Shown: positions 783-36,700 of the stretch, piece after piece | Numbering within the stretch: position 1 is the first letter of the stretch | Layout of the letters: each line of letters starts with the position of its first letter | Origin: a virus | Virus genome (UHGV): UHGV-0122704 | DNA length: 43,652 bases | Strand: one strand, 5' to 3' | Notes under the pieces: model-generated | The model's input: the letters and a program-made list of their open reading frames with translations, nothing else | Databases searched by the model: none | Told to the model about the DNA's origin: nothing | Position numbers and translations under genes: made by a program

Positions 783-1244
783 ATGTCTATGAACATCAAA
801 TATGACACAACATCCCCTAGCTGCTTGGTGTGGCTCAAGGGTAGGCGCGCCGGTGCTCCAGCGGGTACCCGCAACACTCGTGGCTACTGGGTGGTACAGG
901 TATCTGGTAGAAAGATACAGGCACACCGCCTCATCTGGGAACTACACAACGGGCCTATTCCAGACGGATATGTGGTGGACCACATCAACCAAAACCCCGG
1001 TGACAACAGATTAGAGAACCTGCGCTTAGCTACGGTTAGCGAAAACAACTGTAACGCACGCAGGTCTAAGCGGGAACATCCTAGGGGTGTATACTACACT
1101 GGCACCTGCTGGCGCGGGGAGTTCTGGAAGGACGGTAAGCGTTACATGAAGAAGCACAGCTCCTACGAAGTTATCTGCAAGTGGGTACTAGAGAAACGTC
1201 AAGAGCAACACAAGGCCTTCACCCCGGGGCAGGTGTATATCTGA
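783..1244 (+). CDS. HNH homing endonuclease (HNH_3-type with AP2-like C-terminal domain)
   Basis: ATG 783 preceded by GAGGA. Motif HRLIWELHNGPIPDGYVVDHINQNPGDNRLENLRLATVSENN is a textbook phage HNH_3 signature; C-terminal GVYYTGTCWRGEFWKDGKRY resembles an AP2 DNA-binding domain. Confidence 0.85.
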   Translation: MSMNIKYDTTSPSCLVWLKGRRAGAPAGTRNTRGYWVVQVSGRKIQAHRLIWELHNGPIPDGYVVDHINQNPGDNRLENLRLATVSENNCNARRSKREHPRGVYYTGTCWRGEFWKDGKRYMKKHSSYEVICKWVLEKRQEQHKAFTPGQVYI

Positions 1245-1662: not shown

Positions 1663-1858
1663 GCTGTAGTGCGTCACGGTGCTATCCCTAGTATGCACTA
1701 GGCTATCCACTGGCTATCCCTAGTGCTTTACATTGTGCCGATTATATGCTACGCTGCGCGCTCCCCACTAGGGCGCACATCCTCACCCAACACTATCCCG
1801 GCGCTATCTCTTTGCTATCCCCTTGCTCTTACTTTCATTCGAAAGCTGTCATGAAATG

Positions 1859-1875
1859 ATGTTACAGGAGTAGGA
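1859..1875 (+). promoter_or_regulatory. Copy A of conserved motif ATGTTACAGGAGTAGGA (17-mer core)
   Basis: Exact 17-mer also present at 22584..22600 and 34492..34508; lies in the non-coding terminal region about 190 bp upstream of HNH gene 2067. Confidence 0.6.
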
Positions 1876-2066: not shown

Positions 2067-2483
2067 GTGGCTAGAACATTTAAGATTGTGGTTGATAAGG
2101 AAGGTTATCCAGTGATTAATGGTGCTGGGCCTGAGTATGTGAATAAGCGAGGTAAGAGAGACTATAAGACTGTGGCGCTGCATAGGGCCGTGGTTATGGA
2201 TGCTCTGGGAATCACTAGCTACGGTTCTGGCTATCACGTACATCACTGTGACAGTAACCGCCTTAACTGTGACTTCAATAACCTGATACTGGTTAGCGCT
2301 GACACTCACCGGGCCATACACTTAGCACAGATTCAGGAAGGGAGATGCTTCACAAAGGATGAGTTATTGGCTAGTCCTGAGTACGATACTAACTGGCGAG
2401 AGTTCGACGTGACTTATGGGGACTACAATAGTTTACTGCACGCAGACCTTTGGGGGTCTGCTTACTCTTTTTGCTCCCAGTGA
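2067..2483 (+). CDS. HNH endonuclease
   Basis: GTG start 8 nt after AAGGAG (2053..2058). Motif YHVHHCDSNRLNCDFNNLILVSADTHRAIH fits an HNH nuclease core. Confidence 0.75.
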   Translation: MARTFKIVVDKEGYPVINGAGPEYVNKRGKRDYKTVALHRAVVMDALGITSYGSGYHVHHCDSNRLNCDFNNLILVSADTHRAIHLAQIQEGRCFTKDELLASPEYDTNWREFDVTYGDYNSLLHADLWGSAYSFCSQ

Positions 2484-3281: not shown

Positions 3282-3287
3282 TTACAG

Positions 3288-3996: not shown

Positions 3997-4003
3997 TAGC
4001 AAG

Positions 4004-10761: not shown

Positions 10762-10767
10762 CTTCCC

Positions 10768-10790
10768 TAGCGCCTTCTATGAGGGCGCTA
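10768..10790 (+). promoter_or_regulatory. Stem-loop (TAGCGCC / GGCGCTA, 9-nt loop) related to the early hairpin motif
   Basis: Shares GGCGCTATGT with copy 2; lies between the helicase and the small ORF before the DNA polymerase. Confidence 0.45.
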
Positions 10791-10813
10791 TGTAGGTACA
10801 CTAGGAGGCTACT

Positions 10814-10969
10814 ATGCTTAAACCGTCAGACATTAACTACCTCGACGAAGAGGTAATCAAGGCGTACGCTGCGTCTGCAGGTACTTTCCGTAAACGATTC
10901 GCGCTGGACAGCAGCCAGCTGATTGTGCATCTAGCTATCAATAAAGCTCGGAGGGCTAAGTGGAAATGA
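10814..10969 (+). CDS. Hypothetical small protein (51 aa)
   Basis: ATG 10814 preceded by a near-perfect AGGAGG; its stop overlaps the DNA polymerase start in ATGA. Confidence 0.5.
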   Translation: MLKPSDINYLDEEVIKAYAASAGTFRKRFALDSSQLIVHLAINKARRAKWK

Positions 10970-13377
10970 CAACCAGCATAATGCACCTTGACCTGGAGAC
11001 GGAGAACCATGAATATTACGGCTCTAAAGCAAGCCCATACTGCCCTGACAACTATGTTGTTGAGTCCGCATGGCGTATCGACACGACACAGGCTGACGGT
11101 ACTACCACTGTTGGCGCGACTCAATCGGTGCGCTTCAATTCAAGAGCTGATTTCTTGGCGGGAAACAGTGCAGCAGAAGGCTGCCGGTGGTTTCATATCC
11201 CCGAGGATTGCTGGCTTATTGTTGCGCACAACGCAGCCTATGAGATTTCTTGGTTTCTCACGTACCAGCGGCAGCAGTTTGAGGCCTTCCTCAAGCGCGG
11301 TGGCAGGGTGTTCTGCACAATGCACGGGGAATACATCGCCTCGGACTTTCAGAGCATGTATCCGTCTCTGGACGAGACGGCTCCTAAGTACGGTGGTACG
11401 CACAAAGTAGACGGGGTTAAGATTCTATGGGAGCAGGGTGTGTTAACCTCCCAGATCGACCCGATACTGCTGCATGACTACCTGGTTAACGGGGACATCC
11501 CGAACACGGCCCTGTGCTTCTACGGCCAGTGCGCTACGTTCGCCCAGCGCAATCAGATGCAGTACGTGTGGGAACGTATGGATGCCTTGCTAGCTTGGGC
11601 GTACTGCGAGTGGTTCGGCCTGTTCGTGAATATGCCAATTGCACGCAAGAACCAGGAGGAGCAGGAGCAGCGCATCCGTGAGATTAAGCAGGAACTGCAG
11701 CAGTACATCCCGAAGGACTTGCCGGAGACGCTGGACTTCAATTTCGGGTCGGACTTTCATATGTCTGCACTGGTGTACGGCGGGCCTATAAAGTACCGCA
11801 AGAAGGTCCCCTATGACCCTCCGCAGTACGTCAAGGCCGACTACTATAAGTACGAGGACGAAGATGGTGCGCACACCTATATACCTGTACACGACACGCA
11901 CATGCAAGAACTTCAAACGGAAGGCGGATGGTGGCGTGTAGTGACATATCGTGCGGGTAAGAACAAGGGGCTCCCTAAAGTATTCCGCCTCGATACCGAG
12001 GAAGAGAAACTTAAATGGGAAGACGACCTTTACTTCTGCCCGGGCCTAGTGAACATCCAGGAGCTTCCGGAAGTTATCCGGGAGAAGTACGCAGAGCGCG
12101 GGGAGTTCCGACAGGCGCGCACCCTGCAGGATGGCACCCCTGTGTATAGCACCAGCACTGATGCAATGGAGGCGCTGGCTCGCCAAGGGTTCGAGTTCTG
12201 TAAGTTGGTGAACGAACTGGCGGCGCTGGAGAAGGATACCGGCACTTACTATTTGCGAGAAGTACTGGACGCAGGAGGTAATGTAAAAGAGCGGAAGGGG
12301 ATGCTGCAGTATGTAATCCCGGAGCGTCCCGATGGTTCCGGCATCATTCACCACCGGCTGAATACTTGCGCCACCGTAACCGGGCGCTTGAGTAGCTCTA
12401 ACCCGAACCTGCAGAACCTACCCCGCCCGGATGAGGATGGCGACGGTGTGGCTAAATCCAAGGTGAAGCAGGTGTTCACCAGTAGATTCGGGGACAACGG
12501 ACGTATCACTGAGGTTGACTACTCGGCACTGGAAGTGGTTATGTCCTGTGTACACACGGGTGACAAGAAACTGCTGGGACTGCTGCAGAGTGGTACGGAT
12601 ATGCACTGTTACCGCCTAGCTTTCCGCGAGGGATTACCGTATGAAGAAGTATATGAGCGCTGCCACAACAAGAAGCACGAGCTGCATCCGCTTTGGAAGG
12701 CAATGCGTACAGGTATTAAGGCTCCTAGCTTTGCAGCCCAGTATGGCGCTACGGCTAAGGGGATTGCGTTTGCTACTGGATGTACGGTGGAATTTGCACA
12801 GGCTTTCTTGGACAACGAGGCTGCGCTGTTCCCGCAAACAATTGGCTTCCGCGCTGTTGTCAAGGAAGAGGTAGAACGTACCGGTGCGGAGGGGCGCATG
12901 TACCGGGAGCAGGCTGACGACGGCAGCTACCGAATCTACCGCATTGGGACGTGGACCAGCCCAGCCGGTGCCCGCTACAGTTTCCGTCAGAAAGAGCAGT
13001 GGAAAGAGGTTGTGCCTGGGCAGCGTAAGCAGAAGGTAATGGACTACAAGGAAACAGAGATGGCTAACTACTGGTGCCAGGGGGAAGCATTCTTCCTGAT
13101 GGCGGTAGCCGCCGGTATGGTTCTGCGTGCACTCCTGGCCCGTGACTGGTTCGACAATCAGGTGTGCCTGATTACGAACGTGCACGATGCGTTGTATCTG
13201 GACAGCGCCAACCCGGAGGTTGGACGTGAGGCGAGCCTGCTGGTTAAGCAGTGCATGGAGGATGCACCTAAGCGTATTCACCAGCTCTGGCCTAACTACG
13301 GCATCATTGGTGAGGTCCCGTTCCCAGCAGAGGCTGAGATGGGTACGAGTATGTACAGTAAGGAGAAGGTAGAATGA
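10966..13377 (+). CDS. DNA polymerase (family A, T7 gp5-like)
   Basis: N-terminal 3'-5' exo motif MHLDLETEN; polymerase motifs RLNTCATVTGRLSSSNPNLQNLP, K...FAAQYGA and VHDALYLD. ATG 10966 preferred over the track GTG 10960. Confidence 0.95.
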   Translation: MTTSIMHLDLETENHEYYGSKASPYCPDNYVVESAWRIDTTQADGTTTVGATQSVRFNSRADFLAGNSAAEGCRWFHIPEDCWLIVAHNAAYEISWFLTYQRQQFEAFLKRGGRVFCTMHGEYIASDFQSMYPSLDETAPKYGGTHKVDGVKILWEQGVLTSQIDPILLHDYLVNGDIPNTALCFYGQCATFAQRNQMQYVWERMDALLAWAYCEWFGLFVNMPIARKNQEEQEQRIREIKQELQQYIPKDLPETLDFNFGSDFHMSALVYGGPIKYRKKVPYDPPQYVKADYYKYEDEDGAHTYIPVHDTHMQELQTEGGWWRVVTYRAGKNKGLPKVFRLDTEEEKLKWEDDLYFCPGLVNIQELPEVIREKYAERGEFRQARTLQDGTPVYSTSTDAMEALARQGFEFCKLVNELAALEKDTGTYYLREVLDAGGNVKERKGMLQYVIPERPDGSGIIHHRLNTCATVTGRLSSSNPNLQNLPRPDEDGDGVAKSKVKQVFTSRFGDNGRITEVDYSALEVVMSCVHTGDKKLLGLLQSGTDMHCYRLAFREGLPYEEVYERCHNKKHELHPLWKAMRTGIKAPSFAAQYGATAKGIAFATGCTVEFAQAFLDNEAALFPQTIGFRAVVKEEVERTGAEGRMYREQADDGSYRIYRIGTWTSPAGARYSFRQKEQWKEVVPGQRKQKVMDYKETEMANYWCQGEAFFLMAVAAGMVLRALLARDWFDNQVCLITNVHDALYLDSANPEVGREASLLVKQCMEDAPKRIHQLWPNYGIIGEVPFPAEAEMGTSMYSKEKVE

Positions 13378-13595
13378 GTATAAAGTCTGGCAGTGTTGTG
13401 GAGTTGATGGACCTGGGGCCTGAGCCGATAGACCCGCGGTATGCAGCATACTTCGCCCCGGGTACGAGGCACACGGTCATGTTCTTCGACCCGGTTACTG
13501 GGGAGATAGAACTAAGTTATCCTGGACTAGTAGTAAGTAGACCGGGGGATGGTGTTACCTTCTTCCCGGGGGAGTACAAGCTTATCGTGGAATAG
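13374..13595 (+). CDS. Hypothetical protein (73 aa)
   Basis: ATGA overlap with the DNA polymerase stop. Confidence 0.5.
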   Translation: MSIKSGSVVELMDLGPEPIDPRYAAYFAPGTRHTVMFFDPVTGEIELSYPGLVVSRPGDGVTFFPGEYKLIVE

Positions 13596-13717
13596 TGATA
13601 GGTGGACCCTTGGGTGGTGTAGGGGGTTAGGGTAGCATGGAAATACACTGGGGTCAACTAAATAATTAAATAAAATTATTTGTTGACTCTAGCTTGATTC
13701 TGTGATTCACAGAGAAT

Positions 13718-13736
13718 TAATGTGATACGAGTAGGA
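13718..13736 (+). promoter_or_regulatory. Degenerate copy D of the conserved 19-bp motif (TAATGTgatacGAGTAGGA)
   Basis: Shares the 5' block TAATGT and 3' block GAGTAGGA at the same spacing as the three exact copies; about 20 nt upstream of HNH gene 13757 in an AT-rich intergenic region that also holds a TTGACT -35-like hexamer (13683..13688). Confidence 0.45.
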
Positions 13737-13756
13737 ACAACACAAGAGGATACCGA

Positions 13757-14191
13757 ATGTCGATGTGTATTGACCACGGGTATAACAAATGCCTTAACAA
13801 GAACGGATACCGCCGGGCATGGTATAAGCCGACCAGGCGATTGGAGCTGCTGCATCGGGTGGTGTATGCTGAGCATAACGGGCTGGATATAAGGGCGCTG
13901 GCTGGCCTGTCTGTTAGACATACCTGCGATAACCCCAGGTGCATTAACCCTAAGCACTTAGTATTGGGAACGCATATGGATAATATGCGGGACCGTGCAG
14001 AGCGCGGAAGGAACCCAGATGTGCGTGGGGATAGGAACCCAAAAGCGCAGTTAACTTGGGATGCTGTGCAGGATATCAGGGATAACTATATCCCATACAA
14101 GAAAGGTATGCGGCAACACTTTGCTAATAAGTACGGTGTAGGTGTACATGTAATTAGTGACGTAATAAGTAACAGGAGCTGGAATGCCTAA
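13757..14191 (+). CDS. HNH homing endonuclease (HNH_3-type)
   Basis: LHRVVYAEHNG...HTCDNPRCINPKHLVLGTHMDNMRD; RBS AAGAGGA. Confidence 0.85.
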   Translation: MSMCIDHGYNKCLNKNGYRRAWYKPTRRLELLHRVVYAEHNGLDIRALAGLSVRHTCDNPRCINPKHLVLGTHMDNMRDRAERGRNPDVRGDRNPKAQLTWDAVQDIRDNYIPYKKGMRQHFANKYGVGVHVISDVISNRSWNA

Positions 14192-15173
14192 GTTAAACAC
14201 AATAAAGCTATTCACCAAAGAGCAACACATAGATATCTTGAGCAAGCACAGCTCTAACGTGGATGCTGCTGCCGCCTATAATAATCTGGCGGGACTGGAC
14301 GAGCCAGTGGTGTATCGACAGATGGTGAAGTACTGGCGCAGCATATTCCTAGACCACGCTGGGAGCAAGGGTAAGGCAATATCCCACATGAAGGAGGCAC
14401 TAAAGCTCATACAGCCCAGTCCCACTGATGACATCGGCAAAACCTTCGTGCCGGAAGTGTGCCACCGTATTCTCGTAGTTGGGGATTTGCATGCCCCCTA
14501 TACGCACGTAGATGCTATGGCCTTCTTAGAATCTGTGCGAGACGCCTACTGTCCGGACATGGTTGTACAGGTAGGCGACGAGACGGACGGCCACGCTATA
14601 TCATTCCACGAAAGTAACCCGAACCTAGATAGCGCCGGGGTGGAGCTGGAGAAAGCCAAGCTCGTACTGGAGGAGCTGCATGAACTATTCCCGAACCTAC
14701 TGGTTTGCGATTCCAATCACGGCAGTCTGGTTTACCGCAGGGCGAAAGCTCACGGGCTACCAGTGCAATTCATCAAGAAGTACCGAGATATACTTTTCCC
14801 TGAGCATGGTGCCCCGGCGTGGTCTTGGGCTGACGCATGGGTACTCAATACCCCACTTGGCCCGGTTAGATTCCAGCATCAAGTGTCGGGTGACTTCATG
14901 CTCAACGCTAGCCACGAAAGAACCAGCCTTGTCCTTGGTCACGAACATGGTCGCTTTGAGGTGCAATATGCAGCTAGCTCAACAGCTTTGTACTTTGGTG
15001 CGTATGCTGGGTGTCTGATTGACCGTAAGAGCATGGCCTTTGCTTACGGCAGACTCACCCGCAAGAAACCAATCCTGGGTGTGATGGTAATCACCGAGGG
15101 CTGTCCGCAGTTAATCCCGATGCTGCTTGATGATTCCGGAAGGTGGTGTGCAAGAGATAAAACCAAAGACTGA
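14184..15173 (+). CDS. Calcineurin-like metallophosphoesterase (possible nuclease/phosphatase)
   Basis: Ordered motifs GDLHA (D-x-H), GDETDGH (GD-x-x-D), SNHG (N-H) and GHEHG (GH-x-H). Confidence 0.75.
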   Translation: MPKLNTIKLFTKEQHIDILSKHSSNVDAAAAYNNLAGLDEPVVYRQMVKYWRSIFLDHAGSKGKAISHMKEALKLIQPSPTDDIGKTFVPEVCHRILVVGDLHAPYTHVDAMAFLESVRDAYCPDMVVQVGDETDGHAISFHESNPNLDSAGVELEKAKLVLEELHELFPNLLVCDSNHGSLVYRRAKAHGLPVQFIKKYRDILFPEHGAPAWSWADAWVLNTPLGPVRFQHQVSGDFMLNASHERTSLVLGHEHGRFEVQYAASSTALYFGAYAGCLIDRKSMAFAYGRLTRKKPILGVMVITEGCPQLIPMLLDDSGRWCARDKTKD

Positions 15174-15195
15174 TACAGGAAAGAGATTCCGCGGT

Positions 15196-15699
15196 ATGGT
15201 TGTTTATACCTGGGACTGCCCTTACTGTGGCGAGGAGTTTGAGGCGATACGCACTAAGCTATTCAATACCAGTAAGCGCGGCGGCCTTGGTCACTGCGGA
15301 TGTCAAACTAAACTCAGGCAAAGTGAGAAGAATACTGGACGAACTCCGCCTAATAAGCTGGACGACTTAACAGTATCGGCGAATAAGGTATGGGCCTTTA
15401 GCACTAAGTTAGGTAGGAGTATTACTAAGGAAGACGCCAAGGCCTTAGTAAGCGCAGATTGTTATTACTGCGGCGCGCCACCCAGTACCTACCGGGAACT
15501 CGGCAGTGGGAGATGGGCGCGTAAATCCACAGTACCCACTAACGGGATAGACCGGAAGGATTCACGCATTGGGTACCATTTAGACAACTGTGTGCCATGC
15601 TGCCCTACCTGCAACTATATGAAGTCTGACATGCACCACGATGACTTCGTAGGACTGTGCAAACGCATAGCCCTGCATCTGCACGTAAATATCATTTAA
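15196..15699 (+). CDS. Cys-rich HNH-like endonuclease (start uncertain; track start 15127)
   Basis: CPYCGEEF, CGC, CYYCG and YHLDNCVPCCPTCNYMKSDMHHDDF suggest a zinc-binding HNH fold. ATG 15196 chosen to avoid a 45-nt overlap. Confidence 0.5.
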   Translation: MVVYTWDCPYCGEEFEAIRTKLFNTSKRGGLGHCGCQTKLRQSEKNTGRTPPNKLDDLTVSANKVWAFSTKLGRSITKEDAKALVSADCYYCGAPPSTYRELGSGRWARKSTVPTNGIDRKDSRIGYHLDNCVPCCPTCNYMKSDMHHDDFVGLCKRIALHLHVNII

Positions 15700-15720
15700 A
15701 CTAAACGAGGACGTAATTAT

Positions 15721-16509
15721 ATGACTACGAATGTATTGGCATCCCTGAACGCTCTGGTAGACGCAGCAATCGGAACCCAAGATGTAGATATGCGGGAAAC
15801 CGCACAGGGCGGCGCATATGAGGACGTGCTGCTGCCGAAGGGTGAATACTACGGCTACTTCACCGAGTACGTAGAAATCGGTAAGCGCCTGCCGACTAAG
15901 GGTGGCAAGCCGACCGGTAAGCCCGCAGTAGCTAACGTACGCATCGGCATTGTAGTGTTCGGTCCTAACGGCGAAGTGAAGCGTATCCGCCCGTTCCCGA
16001 TGGCTATCAGTAACTTTGAGCGCGCAGGCTTCAAGAAGTTCTTCGACAAGCTCAACTACGACAATAGCATTAAGCATGCAGCACAGCGTCTGGGCCAGGC
16101 CTTCACCTTCCCGATTGATGAGCACACCAGCGCCGCGGGCAAGAAGTCCAACATCGTGGACCTGTCCGGTATCCGCCCGATTCCGAAATTCGACCCGAAC
16201 ACTGGCGAGCCTATCAAGATGCCTGCCATGGATGCCTCTGAGATTAAGCTGTTCCTGTGGAACAACCCAACCAAAGAGACCTGGGATAGCCTGCACATCG
16301 AAGGCACCTTCGACGATGGTAAGAGCAAGAACTGGATTCAGGAGGATATGTACAAGGCTGTAGACTTCCCTGGCAGTGCTCTGGATATTCTGCTGAACGC
16401 TGGCTCGGTTCCTAGTCCGGCAGCTATGCAGGCACCCGCAGCCCCGGCTGCACCAGTGGCCCCTGCAGCCCCTGTGGCGCCAGCAGCACCCGCCGCACCT
16501 CAAGCCTAA
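15721..16509 (+). CDS. Hypothetical protein with Pro/Ala-rich C-terminal repeat; host-like codon bias (possibly an abundant DNA-binding protein)
   Basis: RBS GAGGA; C-terminus APAAPAAPVAPAAPVAPAAPAAPQA; codon usage resembles the capsid gene. Confidence 0.7.
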   Translation: MTTNVLASLNALVDAAIGTQDVDMRETAQGGAYEDVLLPKGEYYGYFTEYVEIGKRLPTKGGKPTGKPAVANVRIGIVVFGPNGEVKRIRPFPMAISNFERAGFKKFFDKLNYDNSIKHAAQRLGQAFTFPIDEHTSAAGKKSNIVDLSGIRPIPKFDPNTGEPIKMPAMDASEIKLFLWNNPTKETWDSLHIEGTFDDGKSKNWIQEDMYKAVDFPGSALDILLNAGSVPSPAAMQAPAAPAAPVAPAAPVAPAAPAAPQA

Positions 16510-16532
16510 TCAACCCTAACCTAAACTAATAC

Positions 16533-16549
16533 GGCCCCTCCTAGGGGCC
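16533..16549 (+). promoter_or_regulatory. GC-rich hairpin (GGCCCCT / AGGGGCC, 3-nt loop) with no T-tract
   Basis: Perfect 7-bp stem in the intergenic gap after gene 15721..16509; could be a processing or pause site. Confidence 0.35.
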
Positions 16550-16562
16550 TTAGAGGAAGCCT

Positions 16563-16817
16563 ATGAACATCATCAAGATTCTCATCAAACTCCTGAGCGC
16601 AGCCTACACAGCAGAAGCTAAACGCGCCGATGCCAAAGCGCAGTTTAACGAGCAGTTGTCAGTTAAATTCGCAGACGACGCAGTGCGTCTGGCCGCTCAA
16701 TCCGAGGCGCGCGTAGAGGCATCCAAGCATAGCAAAGAGTTAGCCGAGGCGTGCGCTTGCCATGCTGATAACCTGCGCGCTAAGCGTGATGAAGTAGCTA
16801 ACTTCCTGGAGGTATAA
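16563..16817 (+). CDS. Hypothetical protein (84 aa)
   Basis: ATG 16563 preceded by AGAGGAAG. Confidence 0.55.
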   Translation: MNIIKILIKLLSAAYTAEAKRADAKAQFNEQLSVKFADDAVRLAAQSEARVEASKHSKELAEACACHADNLRAKRDEVANFLEV

Positions 16818-17096
16818 ATGCGCATAATCACATGGGCCAAAGAACAGTACGCTGTGTTTCTGCTTCTGCGTGCACAGCGTTTGCAGAAGCGAGCAAATGA
16901 CTGGCACCGGGCAGCTAATTCTCACGCACACAGGGCAAGCCTTCTGGGTGCCGAGATTAGCGCACACCGCTATCACTTGACTCGCCAGTGCGCCAAGTCC
17001 CGACGCCGTGCATACGCCCTGGGTGCAGAGGCTACGGCCACTGAGACCAAAGCCCACAATTTCATTTCAAAACACAAATTGAAAGGATTTGACTAA
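16818..17096 (+). CDS. Hypothetical protein (92 aa), basic
   Basis: ATG 16818 preceded by GGAGG. Confidence 0.55.
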   Translation: MRIITWAKEQYAVFLLLRAQRLQKRANDWHRAANSHAHRASLLGAEISAHRYHLTRQCAKSRRRAYALGAEATATETKAHNFISKHKLKGFD

Positions 17097-17631: not shown

Positions 17632-17634
17632 AGA

Positions 17635-19965: not shown

Positions 19966-20106
19966 GTGGTGCCACGGGATGTGGCAGAAAGCAGTAGAGC
20001 GGGGAGACGAACGCGCCGCTAAAGACTACCTGGAGATGTACAATCTCTGGGTAAGTCGCAATCAGTAGTTAGAAGTACCGGACATAACCAAGGAGACTAA
20101 GCGCCT

Positions 20107-22575
20107 ATGATTAGCGCCCTGAATACGGTTGTAGTACCAGAGGAAGCACTGGTGAAACGCCAGCTGGAGCTTGAAGAGACCTATAAGATTCGCGGAATCG
20201 AGCGGGCACGTAAGCTGATTACGGACGCATTGCAGAACGGTGGGATTATGAACCTGCCGATGACGCAGCGTATGCTCACCTCGGCATATGAGGTGGCCGC
20301 CGCCGCTATCGATGAGATGCGAAATGTAAAAGCCCCGGGCATTGGCGGTAAGTACCGCCGGTTCCTGCGCTTAGTCCCCTTGGATGTCCTGACCACCCTG
20401 AGCCTATGCACAATGTTTGAGGCATTTAGCGTAGCTCCTGGCGAGTCCGCTAGCCGCCGCCAGACTGCACAGGCGGTAATGTCCGCGCTGGGCCGGAACG
20501 TACAATCGGAACTGCTGGCCCTGCAGTTACGCAACGTGGCTCCGGCGTACATGGACCGTGTGTACGAGTACCTTACGGAGCGTAAGACCAAGTCTCCCAC
20601 GCACATCCTGCGTACGCTGCGGGCCAGTGCTGAGAACGTGCACTATGGGCACGAGCCATGGACCAACTCCCAGAATATCTCAGTAGGTCGGCTGCTATGT
20701 GCCGCGGTGTTTGAGACTGGCCTGTTCCAATGGAAGAACTGTAGTGGGAACCTGAGCATGCTCTACCCGGCTGACGATGTTATGGAGGCCTTCCAGAAAC
20801 TGGTAGAGTCCGCTGATACCGTAACCATGAAGCCGCCTATGCTGGTGCCACCGGTACAGCACACCACTATGTGGGATGGCGGGTACCTTACCCCCATCGA
20901 CAATCGCGGGACCTATCACAACTCGCACATCGACCGCGCGCGACTCCGTGAAGTAGCAGAAGCATTCAAGTCCGCGGACGGCATCAAAAAGGCGCTTAAT
21001 AAGGCGCAGGAAACCCCATACCGTATTAATAAGCGCATACTGGAACTGGTGCAAGAAGCACGGGCCCTGGGTATTGGGGTGGGCATGCCCCGCTCAGTAC
21101 CAGAGCCTAAACCGGAGTGGTACTTGGATGGAGTACCAAAAGAGAACTACACCGAAGAAGAACTGGACCGCTTCGGTGAGTGGAAGACGCGCATGTCCCT
21201 ATGGTACAGCGCAGACCGTAAGCGTGTGTCACAACTACGCAGCCTGTTGACCACGCTGGAAATGGCGGAGGAATTCAAAGATGAGAAAGCCCTGTACTTC
21301 CCGACTTGTGTGGACTGGCGCTACCGCCTGTACTTCAAGTCCTCGCTGCATCCCCAAGGTTCTGATTTGCAGAAAGCCCTTCTTGAATTCGGACGTGGCA
21401 AGCCTCTGGGAGAGCGCGGACTTTTCTGGCTTAAAGTGCACGTCGCCACTTGCTTTGGTTATGACAAAACCCTATTCGAAGACCGTGCAGCTTGGGTTGA
21501 TGCGAACTATGCAGAGATTGAGAGGCTCGCGGATTCTCCTCTTGATGCCCCTGCTTTTTCCTCTGCGGATAGCCCCTGGTGCCTGCTGGCCGCCGCTATC
21601 GACTTGGTTAATGCGGTTCGTTCTGGATGCCCAGAAGAGCATATTAGCCGAATCCCAGTTGCTATGGACGCTACAAACTCAGGTGGACAGCATCTCTCAG
21701 CGCTCCTGAGAGACCCTGTGGGCGGACGCTTGACGAACCTGTACTGGGAGGGTAATGATAAGAAAGCGGACCTGTACATGGACGTGAAGCGCCGTACGGA
21801 CGAGAAGGTGATACTGGACCTGGACAAGGAGGATTTCGTTATCCAGAGCACGTACTGGAGAGAGAACGAAATCACCCGCAGCATGACCAAGCGCCCTAGT
21901 ATGACCTACTTCTACAGCGCCACTGTGCGCAGCTGCAGCGACTACATCTTCGAAGGCGCTTGCGCTGAGGGGTACGAGGGTACTGAGACTAACAGTCTGT
22001 GGAACTTGTCATGCTACCTGGCTCCGCGTATGCGCACTGCTATCGAGGAGGCAAACCCAGCCGCAGCCGCAGTTATGGGGTACTTGCAGAACCTCGCTAG
22101 GCGTGTACCGGCAAGCCAGCATCTGCAGTGGTATACGCCGCTGGGTGGGCTCGTAATGAACCGCTACACGCAGCGTGAAGAAGTGCGCGTACGTATTGAC
22201 TGCATGAACCTATCAGCGGTACTGGTACACAACCGGGACTTCAAAACTTGCAACAAGCGCAAGGCAGCCTCCGGGATTGCCCCGAACTTTGTGCATAGCC
22301 TGGACAGTACGCACTTGATGATGGTGCTCTGCGCTGCGGAGGGTCTGGATATTGTGCCTATTCACGACTCGCTGGCTACTCACGCAGCTGACGTTGACGC
22401 TATGCATAGGCACATCCGTGAGCAGTTTGTGCGCCTGTATGAAGAGAATGACCTGCTTGGCGACATTACTCGCGCAGCAGCAGCAGCCGGGGCAGACTTG
22501 ACGGACCTGGACATGCCGGAAGTGGGCACTTTGGACATCCGGCAAGTGCTAGAATCCCCGTTCTTCTTCTGCTAA
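20107..22575 (+). CDS. Single-subunit DNA-dependent RNA polymerase (T7-like)
   Basis: Motif A VAMDATNSGGQHLSALLRD, motif B RSMTKRPSMTYFYSAT and motif C IHDSLATH correspond to the T7 RNAP catalytic motifs; RBS AAGGAGA. Confidence 0.95.
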   Translation: MISALNTVVVPEEALVKRQLELEETYKIRGIERARKLITDALQNGGIMNLPMTQRMLTSAYEVAAAAIDEMRNVKAPGIGGKYRRFLRLVPLDVLTTLSLCTMFEAFSVAPGESASRRQTAQAVMSALGRNVQSELLALQLRNVAPAYMDRVYEYLTERKTKSPTHILRTLRASAENVHYGHEPWTNSQNISVGRLLCAAVFETGLFQWKNCSGNLSMLYPADDVMEAFQKLVESADTVTMKPPMLVPPVQHTTMWDGGYLTPIDNRGTYHNSHIDRARLREVAEAFKSADGIKKALNKAQETPYRINKRILELVQEARALGIGVGMPRSVPEPKPEWYLDGVPKENYTEEELDRFGEWKTRMSLWYSADRKRVSQLRSLLTTLEMAEEFKDEKALYFPTCVDWRYRLYFKSSLHPQGSDLQKALLEFGRGKPLGERGLFWLKVHVATCFGYDKTLFEDRAAWVDANYAEIERLADSPLDAPAFSSADSPWCLLAAAIDLVNAVRSGCPEEHISRIPVAMDATNSGGQHLSALLRDPVGGRLTNLYWEGNDKKADLYMDVKRRTDEKVILDLDKEDFVIQSTYWRENEITRSMTKRPSMTYFYSATVRSCSDYIFEGACAEGYEGTETNSLWNLSCYLAPRMRTAIEEANPAAAAVMGYLQNLARRVPASQHLQWYTPLGGLVMNRYTQREEVRVRIDCMNLSAVLVHNRDFKTCNKRKAASGIAPNFVHSLDSTHLMMVLCAAEGLDIVPIHDSLATHAADVDAMHRHIREQFVRLYEENDLLGDITRAAAAAGADLTDLDMPEVGTLDIRQVLESPFFFC

Positions 22576-22581
22576 AAAATT

Positions 22582-22600
22582 TAATGTTACAGGAGTAGGA
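22582..22600 (+). promoter_or_regulatory. Copy B of conserved 19-bp motif TAATGTTACAGGAGTAGGA, abutting the start codon of gene 22601
   Basis: Exact 19-mer shared with 34490..34508 and 17-mer shared with 1859..1875. Sits between RNAP and the first late gene; its AGGAG doubles as the RBS. Confidence 0.6.
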
Positions 22601-33746: not shown

Positions 33747-36700
33747 ATGGCTCAGTTTCTGAACCAAGAACCGAATCCACAGGAAAAGGATTCTGCTAAG
33801 GGCGCAACACTTAAACCTGCGCCTGAGCGCGTAGATTGGAACGATGCCGGAGACAACGGCTTAAACGCACTGGAGCGTGCCTCCTTACTGGCGCAGGCCA
33901 AGACCCCAGCTACTACAGCCGGGGAGAGCTTTGCGTCTGGTATGGGTAACAGCATCATCGCCGCAGCTATCCGTAAGGCCTCTGCCCCGGCATTTGACCG
34001 GGACCAGAACTTTAACGCCAAGCAGACTCTGAGCAGCGATACCAGGGCTAAGCTGTATGCTCCGAATCAGGAAGAGATTGAGTACCTGCACGACTCTGTA
34101 TCGGTCGAGGATTACAACTACCGCATGCAGCAGATGCTTGAGCAACGCAACCGTGACCGCTTAATGGCTGACAACACGGTAGCCGGGTTCGCGGGTATGT
34201 TGGTGGGTGATTCTCCGTTCATCCTGGCCCCGATGTCTGCCGCTGGTATTGCTGGCCGCGCAGGCTTAGCTGCACGGACTGCTATCCGCGCTGCTGACGT
34301 AGGCTCCGCATTCTATGCGCAGGACCAACTGGGCCAGTCTGCTGCGGTAACTGCACTGGTAGCGGGCGTAGCTGGGTTGGACCAGCTCTGGGATATGTCT
34401 AGGGCTGCTAAAGCTGCTGCTAAGGCTCGTACTGGGCGTGAGCCTATGTTCGACCCAGAAGCGCCTACAACTCGTACAGCGAGGGACGCTAATGTTACAG
34501 GAGTAGGAGAGGGAGAGGAAATCCTTACTAAGACACTGGATGAAAGCATCCAAGTATCTAGAAACAATACCGCCTCCGTGAACATGAAAGCACAGCACGT
34601 AGTTCAGTTCTTGAAGAAGTCCGAACACTTAACAGCAGGCCAGAAGGCTATTCTGGACACGCTGGGCGATGCTGTAAATGACATTGATTTTAAACTGGTA
34701 GCAGGCTCCGCAAACCGCAGCCGCTACACTTACGCACAGCAAGATTTAGCTAAGCGTGGAGAGGTGTCTCTACGCGCACCTAAGCGAGCTAATGGCAGCA
34801 CATGGACTACAGCAGGGGACGCACTGCGTGCTATGGATGCAGACACAAGCAGGGTAGCCGTGCACGAACTGATTCATGCCGCCACTGCGCGCGCCGTTGA
34901 CAGTAACCCAGAGATTGCTAAGCGCCTGGATGAAGTGCGCGCTGTTATTGCAGCGGACTCCACCTTGACGCCGCGTATGCGGTATTACGCTAGTAATGTG
35001 CACGAGATGCTGGCAGGCTTAGGTGACAGCCCTGAGTGGGTTGAGCATCTGGCGCGGACGAAATCCCCAACCGGTAAGAGCATGCTCCGCCAACTGGGCG
35101 AGTACATCATGAATGCCCTGGGCATCAAGGCCAAAGGTTCTGCCTTGGAAGATGTCTTGGATGCGTACGAGGACGCCGTTAAGTGGACAGCTAAGGATTA
35201 TGCAGACCAAGCCCAGGGCTTCCGTAGTGAAGCCTTCCAGGACCTGGCGGGCAGCACTACCCTAAACGAGGCTAAGGGTGCCCAAGCTATGCTGGATGGC
35301 GCTAAGAAGAAGCTCTCTACTATGTTTGCCCTGTACGATAACATCGCTCAAGGCAATGAAGACTTGGCTAAACTGCTAGTGTCGGATGCGTCCGCAGTAG
35401 GCGGCCGTCGCCCGTCTGTAGTGGACTTCAAGCGCAACCTCACTTTGGAGATGGACGCCAGCGCTAGCGTAGTGGAAGACGCTATCCTGGGCGCGTTGAA
35501 GGATAAGGGTGTAGGTTTCTCTGAGCGCTTCTTCCATCGGAGCAAGTTCCGCGCTGAGCGGGCTGCACTGGAAGACCGCCTGAGCAAGTACCTGGATGCT
35601 GCCTACAGTGCTGATGTAAACGGCCGAGCTGTTCCCGTACCGGATGCAGAGATTGCCCCACTGGTTGACGCCTATCGCCGCTCTGGCTGGGCAGGCAAGT
35701 GGCACGAGCATATGCTCAATGCTGGTCTAGTGGATGATGGTGCGTTGGTTAAATCCGATTACTACTTCCCGCGTCAGTACAGCTACGACAAGATGCGCCA
35801 AGGTATTGCGCAGGGTAACACTCTGGACGACTACCGCGCCCTGTTCAGGTCCGCCCTGCGGGACGTGTACCCGAGCATGGAGTCAGAGGTAGTGCAGCGT
35901 GTTGCAAAGGAGATGGTTGACGGTATCTACAACGGCCGTGCAGGGCAGTCCGGCCCGATGTGGAAGCAGCTGATTAACGGCATGGGTAACGACGAGGTCG
36001 TTATGGCTATGCGTAGCGCTGGTGTAGATGAATCTGCAATCCAGAGTTTCCTGGCTGGTAACGTACGCGAATCCGGTAGCACATCCCCTGCGCGGAACCT
36101 GCGTCAGCGTACTCGGTTCAACATGGACAAAGAGTATCTGGTGAACGGTAAGAGCATGCGCATGCAGGACCTGATGGATACTGATGTAGCCAAGGTTATG
36201 CACGGGTACACTAACCGTATGTCTGGGCGTGTAGGCATGGCCTATGCAGGCGTACAGGACCTGGGCCAGCTAGCTAAGATGATTGATGAGTCTAAGCACG
36301 CACTGGCGGATTCCGCTAAGTGGGAGAAGACAGTCAATGACACCATCGACTTTATCCTGGGTGGGGCGCCTGCTGACGCCGGACAGCTTCCGGATTTGCT
36401 GCGTGCAGCCGGGAACATGGCTAACGCCACCATGCTTAAGAACTCCGGCCTGTATCAGCTGACTGACACTGCCCTGGCTATGAAGGAGTTCGGTATGGCT
36501 AGAGTGCTGCGTAGTATGCGTGACCAGCCTTGGTTCAAGGAAGGTGCCGTAGCTATCAAGACTCCGGATATGGCTACCCGTCTAGACACTGTACTGCGAG
36601 GTAATATCCAGAAGGAGATGCGCTTCCGCTGGTTGAATACGTACGCCGACGATAACCTGGACCTGACCCGTCAGGCCTCTTGGTTCAATGTAACCCAGAA

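What the first reader, a model, noticed from the sequence alone, without database searches (positions are those of the whole stretch)
13683..13736. Degenerate motif copy and AT-rich promoter-like region immediately upstream of an HNH homing endonuclease
Two motif copies (1859 and 13718) lie upstream of HNH endonuclease genes (2067 and 13757). This could mean the HNH genes are inserted next to a conserved regulatory site, or that an HNH enzyme recognises or nicks the motif, as HNH nickases do in some other phages.
Basis: inference. Interest (0 to 1): 0.55.

Follow-up and report, generated by a model that had tools for sequence, protein, structure and literature searches.

The report
Conserved variant phage promoter, HNH passenger
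The "degenerate motif" is a fixed, genus-wide variant of this Klebsiella phage's own RNA-polymerase promoter sitting in a conserved control region, and the HNH endonuclease gene behind it is one of several optional selfish genes that have landed there, not an enzyme that acts on the motif.

Summary
The window is a KP34-like Klebsiella phage (Drulisvirus). The motif is the KP34 RNA-polymerase "strong promoter" T(A/G)ATGTTACAGGAGTA, proven experimentally by Lu et al. 2019. The window has three canonical copies (1857, 22582, 34490) and one 3-mismatch copy at 13718-13733.

That copy is not decaying. It is identical in 50 of 51 Drulisvirus loci, and the one exception changes only the A/G position that also differs between proven promoters. 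It stays constant even though the strong promoters occur in two dialects.

The matching intergenic region in four other lineages (Buco, phiKDA1-like, L085, Micant) carries a variant of that lineage's own promoter. Each is preceded by a TTGAC box 51-52 nt upstream of the predicted start.

The gene downstream varies:
- 39 of 51 loci have none, so the promoter leads straight into the phosphoesterase gene.
- 7 have a gp5.5-like gene, 3 have HNH-B and 2 have HNH-A (the type in this window).
- In 5 of the 39, a third HNH replaces the AT-rich palindrome upstream.

KpV475 has all four motif copies and no HNH gene. The only nick mapped in a congener lies elsewhere. "HNH inserted next to a regulatory site" is supported; "HNH nicks the motif" is not. 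Promoter activity of the variant is untested.

The parts
13374..13595 (+). Small conserved ORF (73 aa, KP34 gp21 homologue) overlapping the end of the DNA polymerase gene. It is the upstream border of the control region.
   Evidence: ORF list. phrog_6862 at E 4.8e-40, function unknown. Annotated in KP34, KpV71 and K25PH129C1. Only 33% of its columns are invariant across 32 relatives.
13596..13637 (+). G-rich conserved non-coding block directly after the gp21 stop codon.
   Evidence: 38 of 42 columns are invariant in 32 sequences, but 21 of these were the search anchor, so the figure is biased. Function unknown.
13648..13692 (.). AT-rich imperfect palindrome (CTGGGGTCAAC-T-AAATAATT ... AATTATTT-GTTGACTCTAG). 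It is dispensable in some relatives.
   Evidence: The DNA fold is -10.4 kcal/mol, z = -7.3 against shuffles. G+C is 26%. The core is invariant with no compensatory changes. It is replaced by an HNH_3 gene in 5 of 51 loci while everything from TTGACT onward is kept.
13683..13707 (+). TTGACT - 12 nt - TGTGATT box. TTGACT starts 51 nt upstream of the predicted transcription start.
   Evidence: The pattern is unique in the window. The same architecture and the same 51-52 nt spacing occur in Buco, phiKDA1-like phages, L085 and Micant. It is not a consensus sigma-70 promoter. Function unexplained.
13708..13714 (+). Variable spacer between the box and the promoter-like 16-mer.
   Evidence: 0 of 7 columns are invariant in 32 relatives. 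This shows that the flanking invariance is selective and not due to a lack of divergence.
13718..13733 (+). Variant copy (V) of the KP34-type RNA-polymerase promoter, TAATGTGATACGAGTA. It differs from the strong promoter at -10 (T>G), -8 (C>T) and -6 (G>C). The predicted +1 is G13734, followed by GA as in the strong copies.
   Evidence: 13 of 16 match plus 3 of 3 initiating bases. 16 of 16 columns are invariant in 32 unique relatives. It is exact in 50 of 51 independently sampled loci, and the 51st has A>G at -15, the position that differs between the proven S1 and S2 promoters. Orthologous sites in other genera match their own promoters. Transcription from it has not been tested.
13744..13749 (+). 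Ribosome-binding site AAGAGG, shared by whichever gene occupies the slot.
   Evidence: Homology among genomes with an empty slot, gp22, HNH-A or HNH-B runs through AACAACAyAAGAG and diverges just before the start codon.
13757..14191 (+). HNH-A: a free-standing HNH (His-Me finger) endonuclease gene of 144 aa. It is optional cargo inserted between the promoter/RBS and the phosphoesterase start codon.
   Evidence: Pfam HNH_3 at 2.1e-9 and PF05551 at 1.9e-6. phrog_6254. Present in 17 of 255 matching GenBank phage records and 2 of 51 IMG/VR loci. Its 3' end overlaps the new ATG of the next gene.
14184..15173 (+). Metallo-phosphoesterase gene. This is the gene that the variant promoter heads in most relatives.
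   Evidence: phrog_221 at 7e-106 and Pfam Metallophos. It starts with TTG directly behind V in 39 of 51 loci, and with ATG when cargo is present. The alleles of HNH-A carriers are 97-100% identical to each other but at most 86% identical to the rest.
1857..1872 (+). Strong promoter copy of S2 type (TGATGTTACAGGAGTA), in the left-end leader.
   Evidence: Identical to KP34 nt 475-490, shown active in vitro.
2067..2483 (+). Second optional HNH gene, inserted in the variable leader about 195 nt downstream of S2.
   Evidence: Pfam HNH_3. Present in 22 of 245 related records. Alignment with KP34 and fHe-Kpn01 shows an insertion into a poorly conserved stretch, with conserved sequence resuming at its 3' end.
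783..1244 (+). Third HNH gene, located after the tailspike gene. No motif copy is nearby.
   Evidence: Pfam HNH_3 at 3.9e-22. The nearest motif copy is 613 nt downstream.
22582..22597 (+). Strong promoter copy of S1 type, directly after the RNA polymerase gene.
   Evidence: Exact match to KP34 22197-22212, whose start site was mapped by 5'-RACE.
34490..34505 (+). Strong promoter copy of S1 type, inside the internal-virion-protein gene.
   Evidence: Exact match to KP34 33721-33736.
20107..22575 (+). Single-subunit RNA polymerase, the enzyme expected to read the motif.
   Evidence: 97.4% identical to KP34 RNAP, with the KP34-type SAVL at residues 703-706. The 'weak promoter' W lies at 22528-22547 with 1 mismatch.

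Best explanation
Positions 13718-13733 are a fourth promoter for the phage's own single-subunit RNA polymerase. It is an evolutionarily fixed variant of the KP34 'strong promoter', probably weaker or differently regulated, and comparable to a class II promoter of T7.

It is the downstream half of a conserved composite control region (TTGACT box, 12 nt, TGTGA, spacer, promoter). This region heads the second block of DNA-metabolism genes, from the phosphoesterase to the RNA polymerase gene itself.

The HNH gene at 13757-14191 is a free-standing homing-endonuclease-type selfish gene. It has inserted between this promoter/RBS and the phosphoesterase start codon, so it is transcribed and translated from signals it did not bring. 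It has no functional relation to the motif as a substrate. Intergenic regions that carry promoters are simply among the few places in this tightly packed genome where such genes can land and be expressed.

Shown: the identity of the motif family, the conservation, the cargo-slot behaviour, and independence from HNH genes. Inferred: that the variant copy actually initiates transcription, and its relative strength.
For: Motif identity
- The motif equals T(A/G)ATGTTACAGGAGTA, shown by in-vitro transcription and 5'-RACE to be the KP34 RNAP promoter (PMC6834552).
- The window's RNAP is 97.4% identical to KP34's.

Properties of the variant copy (V)
- It matches 13 of 16 positions plus the GGA start, and lies on the sense strand in an intergenic region 21-23 nt before a start codon.
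- It is the best genome-wide match after the three canonical copies.

Selective conservation
- 16 of 16 columns are invariant, against 33% in the adjacent CDS and 0 of 7 in the adjacent spacer.
- It is exact in 50 of 51 loci sampled through the neighbouring protein. The only change is at -15 A/G, a position where both bases were shown to work.

Covariation between genera: the orthologous intergenic region carries each lineage's own promoter 3' half.
- Buco: CACGGTATAGTA, 15 of 18 identical to its post-RNAP promoter, 0 of 178 null segments as good.
- L085: ACTATAAGATAA, 15 of 18, 0 of 166 null segments as good.
- L120: CACGTATAG, 15 of 18, 4 of 180 null segments as good.
- Micant: ACACGCTTAG.AGAAC.

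Cargo slot
- Among 51 loci: 34 empty, 5 empty with HNH-C inserted upstream, 7 gp22, 3 HNH-B, 2 HNH-A.
- The homology break is at the RBS/start codon.
- The phosphoesterase alleles of HNH-A carriers look co-converted.

Independence from HNH genes
- KpV475 has four motif copies and no HNH gene.
- KP34, phiKDA1 and Buco HNH genes lie at other loci.
Against: - No experiment shows initiation at V. Lu et al. reported only three strong copies plus one weak promoter, and the post-polymerase region was not among the tested templates described in the sections read.
- The three substitutions (-10, -8, -6) fall where T7-type polymerases read specificity (established knowledge of T7 RNAP), so activity could be very low.
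- V does not follow the within-genus promoter dialects. ACAGG occurs in 21 loci and ACCGG in 25, and in the genomes compared the dialect goes with RNAP residues 703-706 (SAVL in KP34 and this window, TIMR in fHe-Kpn01). V is more conserved than the proven promoters, which hints at an additional or different constraint.
- The phiKDA1 V/S match alone is not significant (14 of 18, 27 of 180 null segments as good).
- No comparable site was found in the Proteus/Providencia lineage.
- LUZ19 cappable-seq found no phage promoter in the corresponding region of a phiKMV-type phage.
Confidence: 0.6

Rival explanations
1. The region is primarily a DNA-level element such as a replication origin. A phage promoter next to an AT-rich, easily melted palindrome resembles the T7 primary origin (phi1.1A/B promoters plus an AT-rich region). 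On this view V is conserved because transcription from it, or polymerase binding to it, activates initiation of replication rather than gene expression.
For: - There is an AT-rich 45-nt palindrome (26% G+C, fold z = -7.3) directly upstream of V.
- The composite architecture and fixed spacing are conserved across genera.
- V is more conserved than the proven expression promoters.
- The T7 origin architecture is cited from established knowledge, not tested here.
Against: - The AT-rich palindrome is replaced by an HNH gene in 5 of 51 loci, so it is dispensable.
- In T7 the AT-rich region lies downstream of the promoters; here it lies upstream.
- Cumulative GC skew is monotonic and uninformative.
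- There is no experimental origin mapping for any KP34-like phage in the papers searched.
Confidence: 0.15
2. The conserved block is a binding site for host RNA polymerase or a regulator. It could be an atypical extended -10 sigma-70 promoter, or a factor-dependent site. V would be conserved as part of that composite site rather than as a stand-alone phage-polymerase promoter.
For: - TTGAC(T/A), then 14 nt, then TG at the spacing of an extended -10 promoter, occurs in the four lineages where the spacing was checked, and the same TTGAC-12 nt-box layout occurs in L085.
- The pattern is unique in the window.
- The KpV475 depositors annotated a host-type promoter in this intergenic region.
- Middle genes upstream of the RNAP gene must initially be transcribed by host polymerase (inference from gene order).
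Against: - The putative -10 hexamers (TTCACA, AACAGG, AACTGC, GTTGCC) lack the key A-11 and T-7, and in Drulisvirus they fall in the most variable stretch.
- The consensus scan finds nothing above chance.
- This model does not explain why the promoter half tracks each lineage's own RNAP promoter.
Confidence: 0.12
3. V and its flanks are conserved mainly as a recombination linker. On this view it is a boundary sequence that allows exchange of the variable cassette behind it, maintained by frequent homologous recombination rather than by a transcriptional function.
For: - Four different fillings of the slot share the same left boundary.
- The alleles flanking HNH-A look co-converted.
Against: - Recombination linkers do not require base-perfect invariance of a 25-nt core next to a 7-nt hypervariable spacer.
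- The model does not explain the similarity to each lineage's own promoter.
Confidence: 0.07
4. An HNH enzyme of the phage recognises or nicks the motif. This is the first reader's second alternative, by analogy with HNH nickases and with the localized nicks of T5 and phiKMV-like phages.
For: - Two of the three HNH genes in this window lie downstream of a motif copy.
- HNH_3 enzymes include known nicking homing endonucleases such as I-HmuI (established knowledge).
- The promoter core is the reverse complement of the phiKMV nick consensus: GGAGTAGG, or CCGGAGTAGG in the ACCGG dialect, against CCTA/CTCCGG.
- The third phikF77 nick lies in the intergenic region after the polymerase gene and a small ORF.
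Against: - KpV475 has all four copies and no HNH gene.
- The motif is invariant whichever HNH type is present, or none.
- KP34's four HNH genes, and the phiKDA1 and Buco homologues of HNH-A, lie at motif-free loci.
- fHe-Kpn01 shows one nick only, at nt 7873, not at its motif copies at 483, 13775, 22074 and 33614.
- The phiKMV motif lies on the sense strand, the opposite orientation, and is not the mapped LUZ19 promoter.
Confidence: 0.04
5. The copy at 13718 is a chance match or a decaying relic of a former promoter, with no present function.
For: It has three mismatches to the consensus, and it was not reported by the study that defined the promoter.
Against: - The expected number of matches with 3 or fewer mismatches is 0.21 per genome on both strands.
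- The copy is base-perfect in 50 of 51 loci while neighbouring sequence varies.
- Orthologous sites exist in other genera.
Confidence: 0.02

Closest known systems
KP34 RNA polymerase 'strong promoter' T(A/G)ATGTTACAGGAGTA (Lu et al. 2019, Front Microbiol, PMC6834552)
   Same: Same phage genus and near-identical polymerase (97.4%). The window's copies at 1857, 22582 and 34490 are exact matches at the same genomic positions as KP34 475, 22197 and 33721. The 13718 copy shares -16..-11, -9, -7, -5..-1 and the GGA start.
   Different: The 13718 copy carries fixed substitutions at -10, -8 and -6. It was not reported or tested in that work. It is preceded by a conserved TTGAC box that the strong copies lack, and it does not follow the ACAGG/ACCGG dialects of the strong copies.
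Class II (weaker, DNA-metabolism) promoters of phage T7
   Same: A non-consensus promoter for the phage's own polymerase placed ahead of DNA-metabolism genes, alongside consensus promoters ahead of the structural genes. This is an analogy of function drawn from established T7 knowledge.
   Different: The RNAP gene here lies downstream of the site, so the arrangement would be auto-stimulatory. There is a single such site rather than about ten. Nothing is known about its strength or regulation.
Free-standing HNH homing endonuclease genes of T-odd/T-even and T7-like phages (e.g. I-HmuI-type HNH_3 enzymes; T4 seg/mob genes)
   Same: A small HNH_3 ORF, present or absent among near-identical genomes at one precise intergenic point. 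It borrows neighbouring expression signals, and its flanks look co-converted.
   Different: No target site or cleavage has been demonstrated. At 144 aa it lacks the long C-terminal DNA-binding modules of I-HmuI. There is no sequence match to any solved structure.
Localized single-strand nicks of phiKMV-like Pseudomonas phages (Kulakov et al. 2009; consensus CGACxxxxxCCTA/CTCCGG)
   Same: Four copies of a short motif on one strand, one of them in the intergenic region after the DNA polymerase gene and a small ORF. There is 8-10 nt of sequence identity to the reverse complement of the KP34-type promoter core.
   Different: The orientation relative to the genes is opposite. The LUZ19 polymerase promoter mapped by cappable-seq is a different sequence. 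The only nick mapped in a Drulisvirus is elsewhere. No nickase is known, and HNH genes are not required for the motif.
T7 primary origin of replication (phi1.1A/1.1B promoters plus AT-rich region)
   Same: A phage-polymerase promoter adjacent to a strongly AT-rich, meltable segment within the DNA-metabolism region.
   Different: The AT-rich segment is upstream rather than downstream of the promoter, and it is dispensable in 5 of 51 relatives. There are no replication data.

Membership tests
KP34-type single-subunit RNAP strong promoter | 16-nt consensus T(A/G)ATGTTACAGGAGTA | tested here: inconclusive
   The 13718 copy matches 13 of 16, differing at -10, -8 and -6. The other three window copies match 16 of 16 or carry the allowed A/G. 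Lu 2019 showed that removing the first 2 nt already weakens the promoter, but internal substitutions were not tested.
KP34-type single-subunit RNAP strong promoter | Initiation at the G immediately after ...GAGTA (GG start) | tested here: met
   GAGTA|GGA is identical in all four copies. This is sequence only; the start site itself was not mapped.
KP34-type single-subunit RNAP strong promoter | Cognate polymerase encoded in the same genome | tested here: met
   ORF 20107-22575 is 97.4% identical to KP34 RNAP and has the same residues 703-706.
KP34-type single-subunit RNAP strong promoter | Sense orientation, upstream of genes | tested here: met
   It is on the + strand, intergenic, and 21-23 nt before the next start codon.
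KP34-type single-subunit RNAP strong promoter | Directs transcription by the purified polymerase or in infected cells | not testable with these tools
   No transcript-start data for any Drulisvirus were found in the literature searches.
KP34-type single-subunit RNAP strong promoter | Co-evolution with the polymerase's promoter across lineages | tested here: met
   Between genera, the orthologous site carries each lineage's own promoter 3' half. Within the genus it does not follow the ACAGG/ACCGG dialects.
Free-standing HNH homing endonuclease gene | HNH / His-Me finger catalytic domain | tested here: met
   HNH_3 at 37.3 bits (cut-off 24.8) and PF05551 at 28.5 bits (cut-off 27).
Free-standing HNH homing endonuclease gene | Sporadic presence or absence at one precise locus among close relatives | tested here: met
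   Present in 17 of 255 GenBank records and 2 of 51 IMG/VR loci. The slot is empty in 39 of 51.
Free-standing HNH homing endonuclease gene | Co-conversion of flanking markers | tested here: met
   Phosphoesterase alleles of HNH-A carriers are 97-100% identical to the window's, while all others are 66-86% identical. This is suggestive, not proof of homing.
Free-standing HNH homing endonuclease gene | Site-specific cleavage of the endonuclease-free allele | not testable with these tools
   This requires enzyme assays or mixed infections.
Localized phage DNA nick site (T5 / phiKMV type) | Physically mapped, ligase-repairable nick at the motif | not testable with these tools
   Published data for the congener fHe-Kpn01 show a single extra PhageTerm peak and S1-nuclease-sensitive site at nt 7873. 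Its motif copies are at 483, 13775, 22074 and 33614.
Localized phage DNA nick site (T5 / phiKMV type) | Dependence on a phage-encoded nickase (here proposed: HNH) | tested here: not met
   KpV475 has the four motif copies but no annotated HNH gene and no tblastn hit to 14 HNH proteins.
Sigma-70 host promoter | -35 and -10 hexamers with 16-18 nt spacing, including A at position 2 and T at position 6 of the -10 | tested here: not met
   There is no site within 13683-13736. One 9/12 site lies at 13638-13666, not above the shuffle expectation. TTGACT plus 17 nt lands on TTCACA, in the variable stretch.
T7-type primary replication origin | Phage promoter followed by an AT-rich region that is required for function | tested here: not met
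   The AT-rich palindrome is upstream of the promoter, and an HNH gene replaces it in 5 of 51 relatives. Initiation itself cannot be tested here.

The most novel reading that the evidence does not exclude
The 'degenerate' copy may be the core of a roughly 70-bp composite control element that has not been described. The element consists of a TTGAC box, 12 nt, a TGTGA/TGAAAC box, and then a deliberately off-consensus promoter whose predicted start lies 51-52 nt from the TTGAC box.

It has kept its position and architecture across at least five genus-level lineages of KP34-related phages, while its promoter half co-evolves with each lineage's polymerase. It is held more constant than the proven strong promoters.

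Such an element could be a factor-dependent switch that hands the DNA-metabolism/RNAP operon from host to phage polymerase, giving auto-amplification of the RNAP gene. Alternatively it could be the still-unknown replication origin of this phage group.
Probability: 0.3. Interest if true: 0.6.

Novelty: new variant of a known kind. Interest (0 to 1): 0.4.

Why it matters
KP34-type polymerase is being developed as an in-vitro transcription enzyme, and Drulisvirus phages are leading Klebsiella therapy candidates, yet their transcription map rests on three strong promoters and one weak one.

A fourth, naturally off-consensus site that is more conserved than the strong ones would do three things:
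- It would give a ready-made natural promoter variant for dissecting what this polymerase reads at -10, -8 and -6.
- It would explain how the genes between the DNA polymerase and the RNA polymerase are boosted once the phage enzyme appears.
- It would mark a safe, naturally used cargo slot directly behind a promoter and RBS. The slot is filled by four different genes in nature, which could be useful for phage engineering.

The work also removes a tempting but unsupported link between HNH genes and the motif. Most of the finding itself (a known promoter plus selfish HNH insertions) is ordinary biology.

Tried and rejected
- Sigma-70 reading of the 'AT-rich promoter-like region'. The consensus scan gives nothing above chance, and manual placement of -10 hexamers behind TTGACT fails.
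- Structural RNA. There is no Rfam match at E <= 1 in 13400-13900. The RNA fold of the intergenic region is dominated by the AT palindrome.
- Covariation in the palindrome. The stem is simply invariant with no compensatory pairs, so structure and sequence constraint cannot be separated.
- Replication-origin signal. Cumulative GC skew rises monotonically and is uninformative.
- Structure-based hint for nickase versus double-strand cutter. HNH-A has no sequence match in the PDB at E <= 1.
- Link to phiKMV nicks. I first assumed the nick consensus lay on the template strand in promoter orientation. The phikF77 record shows it on the sense strand, and LUZ19's mapped promoter is a different sequence. 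The idea that nick sites are promoters is therefore rejected, and the 8-10 nt reverse-complement identity remains unexplained.
- phikF77 ORF21, downstream of nick 3, does not look like a phosphoesterase on inspection of its translation (no comparison was run), so the synteny appears positional only.
- Literature. No paper in the library contains the variant sequence. No Drulisvirus transcript-start map was found; one broad search was wasted. A genome-mining study predicts 467 KP34-like promoters in 135 genomes, about 3.5 per genome, which might include V, but its supplements are not held. The LIMElight paper is not held.
- Proteus/Providencia relatives (RNAP about 50% identical). No recognisable TTGAC box or V equivalent was found.
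Full report
**What the window is**

Megablast of 10000-22000 finds 279 phage records, almost all Klebsiella phages of the KP34 group. The best is RCIP0106 at 95.4% identity. Gene order is the phiKMV/KP34 type: DNA polymerase, small ORF, phosphoesterase, exonuclease, endonuclease VII, RNA polymerase, then structural genes. The record is circularly permuted, so the true left end lies near 1400-1900.

**The observation**

The repeat finder returns one family of four 19-nt copies, all on the + strand:
- 1857 TGATGTTACAGGAGTAGGA
- 13718 TAATGTGATACGAGTAGGA
- 22582 and 34490 TAATGTTACAGGAGTAGGA

Allowing three mismatches to the 16-mer gives exactly these four hits against 0.21 expected. The next best site in the genome has five mismatches in 19. 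The stretch upstream of 13718 is AT-rich, 26% G+C against 54% for the genome.

Two qualifications apply. The 1857 copy is about 195 nt from the 2067 gene rather than adjacent to it. And the 'promoter-like' look of 13683-13717 does not amount to a sigma-70 promoter: the scan finds nothing inside it and nothing above chance nearby.

**What the motif is**

A full-text search for the sequence leads to Lu et al. 2019 (PMC6834552). Using purified KP34 RNA polymerase, run-off transcription and 5'-RACE, they defined 5'-T(A/G)ATGTTACAGGAGTA-3' as the KP34 'strong promoter'. Its copies lie at KP34 nt 475, 22197 and 33721, and initiation is at the following G.

The window's copies at 1857, 22582 and 34490 are those three promoters at the same relative positions. 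Its polymerase is 97.4% identical to KP34's. The 'weak promoter' from the same paper is also present at 22528 with one mismatch.

The copy at 13718 differs at -10 (T>G), -8 (C>T) and -6 (G>C), and that paper does not report it. No paper in the library contains its sequence.

**The variant copy is fixed, not decaying**

I collected relatives in two independent ways:
- an exact anchor in the G-rich block upstream, giving 30 IMG/VR loci;
- homology to the downstream phosphoesterase protein, giving 80 loci with 10-kb flanks, 51 of them Drulisvirus.

In 32 unique sequences, the 16-mer is invariant at 16 of 16 columns and 13715-13739 at 24 of 25. By comparison, the adjacent gp21 coding sequence is invariant at 33% of columns, and the 7-nt spacer just upstream (13708-13714) at none.

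In the second, unbiased set the 19-mer is exact in 50 of 51 loci. The one exception has A>G at -15, the position that differs between the two strong promoters Lu et al. found equally active.

The proven strong promoters are less constant. 21 loci use ...TTACAGGAGTA and 25 use ...TTACCGGAGTA. In the three genomes compared, the dialect goes with RNAP residues 703-706: SAVL in KP34 and this window, TIMR in fHe-Kpn01. The variant copy is the same in both groups.

**The same site exists in other genera and tracks their promoters**

In each case below, the intergenic region ahead of the phosphoesterase gene contains a sequence whose 3' half equals that phage's own promoter, as seen after its RNAP gene.

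| Lineage (RNAP identity) | Site ahead of phosphoesterase | Own post-RNAP promoter |
|---|---|---|
| Shigella phage Buco (66%) | GAATTCCACGGTATAGTA | GTGTTACACGGTATAGTA |
| L120 (65%, phiKDA1-like) | TAGAAGTAACACGTATAG | TAGAGGTTGCACGTATAG |
| L085 (61%) | AAACATACTATAAGATAA | AGTCACACTATAAGATAA |
| Erwinia phage Micant (59%) | ATTAGAAGTACACGCTTAGAAGAAC | TTTAGAGTAACACGCTTAGGAGAAC |

Against random 450-nt segments of the same locus, the 15-of-18 matches are reached 0 of 178 times (Buco), 0 of 166 times (L085) and 4 of 180 times (L120). phiKDA1 itself is not significant at 14 of 18 (27 of 180).

In every case the differences from the strong promoter cluster in the upstream, specificity half. 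The lineages also share a TTGAC(T/A) box, 12 nt, then a TGTGA/TATGAAAC-type box. TTGAC starts 51-52 nt before the predicted start in the four lineages where I counted it (Drulisvirus, Buco, phiKDA1, Micant). This pattern occurs once in the window. The Proteus/Providencia relatives show nothing comparable.

**What sits behind and in front of the site**

Most relatives align with the window only up to 13748, 9 nt before the HNH start codon. Junction alignments show shared sequence through AACAACAyAAGAG(AG) and divergence just before the start codon.

Among the 51 Drulisvirus loci:
- 34 have the phosphoesterase gene directly behind the site, starting with TTG.
- 5 more are also empty downstream, but the AT-rich palindrome upstream is replaced by a third HNH_3 gene whose stop codon lies in the TTGACT box.
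- 7 carry the KP34 gp22 ('gp5.5-like') gene.
- 3 carry HNH-B, which is 39% identical to the window's enzyme.
- 2 carry HNH-A, the window's type.

When cargo is present, the phosphoesterase gene acquires an ATG overlapping the cargo's 3' end. Phosphoesterase alleles of HNH-A carriers are 97-100% identical to each other and at most 86% identical to all others. That is the pattern expected from co-conversion during homing. In GenBank, HNH-A is present in 17 of 255 matching records.

The 2067 HNH is likewise optional, present in 22 of 245 records. It sits in a poorly conserved part of the leader, well downstream of S2.

**Is the motif an HNH substrate?**

The distribution says no.
- KpV475 has the four copies at 505, 12190, 20473 and 32003. 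It has no annotated HNH gene and no tblastn match to 14 HNH proteins from this group.
- KP34 has four HNH genes (gp19, 24, 31, 36), none next to a copy.
- The closest homologues of HNH-A outside the genus, phiKDA1 gp22 and Buco gp18 at about 43% identity, lie just upstream of the DNA polymerase gene.
- fHe-Kpn01's only HNH lies between the RNAP gene and the S1 promoter, on the other side of a promoter.
- For that phage, PhageTerm and S1 nuclease revealed one nick, at nt 7873. None was found at its motif copies (PMC7291057).

One possibility remains: as a homing enzyme, HNH-A might recognise a site spanning the insertion junction in empty-slot genomes, and that site could overlap the invariant sequence. 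Only an enzyme assay can settle this.

**The resemblance to phiKMV nick sites**

The promoter core, GGAGTAGG (CCGGAGTAGG in the ACCGG dialect), is the exact reverse complement of the phiKMV-group nick consensus CCTA/CTCCGG. The third phikF77 nick lies in the intergenic region after the DNA polymerase gene and a small ORF.

However, the phikF77 motif is on the sense strand, so it has the opposite orientation. The LUZ19 polymerase promoter mapped by ONT-cappable-seq is GgtTATGTCACacACAnnGG, not the nick motif (PMC10914365). I therefore do not build on this resemblance and record it as unexplained.

**How it most likely works**

Shown:
- The motif family is the phage polymerase's promoter.
- The 13718 copy is under strong purifying selection and has orthologues that follow each lineage's promoter.
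- The HNH gene is optional cargo using the site's RBS.

Inferred:
- The copy is a functional but off-consensus promoter.
- From G13734 it drives the block from the phosphoesterase gene to the RNAP gene once some polymerase has been made from host-initiated transcripts.
- This is analogous to the weaker class II promoters of T7 (established T7 knowledge, not tested here).
- Whatever gene sits in the slot becomes the first gene of that transcript.

I put this at 0.6. The main doubts are the untested substitutions at -10 and -8, the failure to follow the within-genus dialects, and the conserved TTGAC box, which suggests an additional partner.

The rivals are an origin-like DNA element (0.15), a host-polymerase or regulator site (0.12), a recombination linker (0.07), an HNH substrate (0.04) and a relic (0.02).

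**Novelty and verdict**

The following are not found in the papers I could search:
- a fourth, fixed, off-consensus promoter-like site;
- its conservation across genera within a composite TTGAC-box element;
- its use as a recurrent cargo slot.

I rate the finding a new variant of a known kind, with interest 0.4.

Noticed in passing
window 3286-3317 and 4002-4033: Two copies of a 32-nt repeat, AGCCTATAGC[A/G]TCCT[A/G]CGGGG[T/C]GCTATGTGAA, which contains an inverted repeat. This is the 'putative phage promoter' of Eriksson 2015. Lu 2019 found that KP34 RNAP does not transcribe from it, so its function is still open.
   Followed up: partly
window 8676-8728 (homologous to fHe-Kpn01 L034 7836-7890): The position homologous to the only nick mapped in a Drulisvirus (fHe-Kpn01 nt 7873, ctctgca|cctgcagatgcaattt) lies inside the primase gene. 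It is 37 nt downstream of the start of a conserved 12-of-16 promoter-like sequence, TACAGTTACAGGAAGA. The segment CTGCAGATGCAATT recurs at 23225 and, degenerate, at 36909.
   Followed up: partly
window 13683-13707; L037 13059-13083; L038 about 11596; L040 about 3505; L085, L087, L120: A TTGAC(T/A) box, 12 nt, then TGTGATT / TGTGAAAC / TATGAAAC is conserved across genera at a fixed 51-52 nt from the predicted start. In phiKDA1-like phages, L087 and L085, the intervening bases form a hairpin with compensatory changes. It looks like a -35 box plus an extended -10 'TG' without a usable -10 hexamer. Function unknown.
   Followed up: partly
strong promoter copies in L034, L012, L014, L022, L032 and 25 of the loci L043-L122; RNAP residues 703-706: Drulisvirus strong promoters come in two dialects...GTTACAGGAGTA and ...GTTACCGGAGTA (often also TGAAG for TGATG). 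In KP34 and this window the ACAGG dialect goes with RNAP residues SAVL at 703-706, and in fHe-Kpn01 the ACCGG dialect goes with TIMR. This is a natural polymerase/promoter co-variation at about -7 and -13.
   Followed up: partly
L039 (phikF77) 2811, 6386, 14327, 24659 versus window promoter copies: The phiKMV-group nick consensus CCTACTCCGG is the exact reverse complement of the KP34-type promoter core (-8 to +2) in the ACCGG dialect. The third phikF77 nick occupies the intergenic region after the DNA polymerase gene and a small ORF. The orientation is opposite, and the LUZ19 promoter is a different sequence, so the meaning is unclear.
   Followed up: partly
window 13596-13637: A G-rich block (GGTGGACCCTTGGGTGGTGTAGGGGGTTAGGGTAGCA) directly after the gp21 stop codon is nearly invariant across the genus. 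Part of it (AGGGTGTTAGGGTA) is also in Buco.
   Followed up: no
window 14184 (phosphoesterase start) and relatives: The phosphoesterase gene starts with TTG in genomes where it directly follows the variant promoter. It starts with ATG, overlapping the preceding gene's end, whenever cargo (HNH-A, HNH-B or gp22) is inserted.
   Followed up: yes
L034 21593-22092 (fHe-Kpn01): That phage's only HNH gene is inserted between the RNAP stop codon and the S1 promoter (22074). Together with three HNH types around the variant promoter, this suggests promoter-bearing intergenic regions are recurrent landing sites for HNH genes.
   Followed up: partly
window 2442-2461: A terminator-like hairpin, GCAGACCTTTGGGGGTCTGC followed by a T-rich tail, lies inside the 3' end of the 2067-2483 HNH ORF, upstream of the conserved early host promoters (TTGACA-17-TAGATT at 2636-2664).
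   Followed up: no
window 1337-1760: A G+C-rich non-coding region full of short direct repeats (e.g. 1598-1627 / 1633-1662, and the reiterated CTATCCCT / TAGTGC). It corresponds to the terminal-repeat and left-end region of KP34-like genomes, collapsed to one copy in this permuted record.
   Followed up: no
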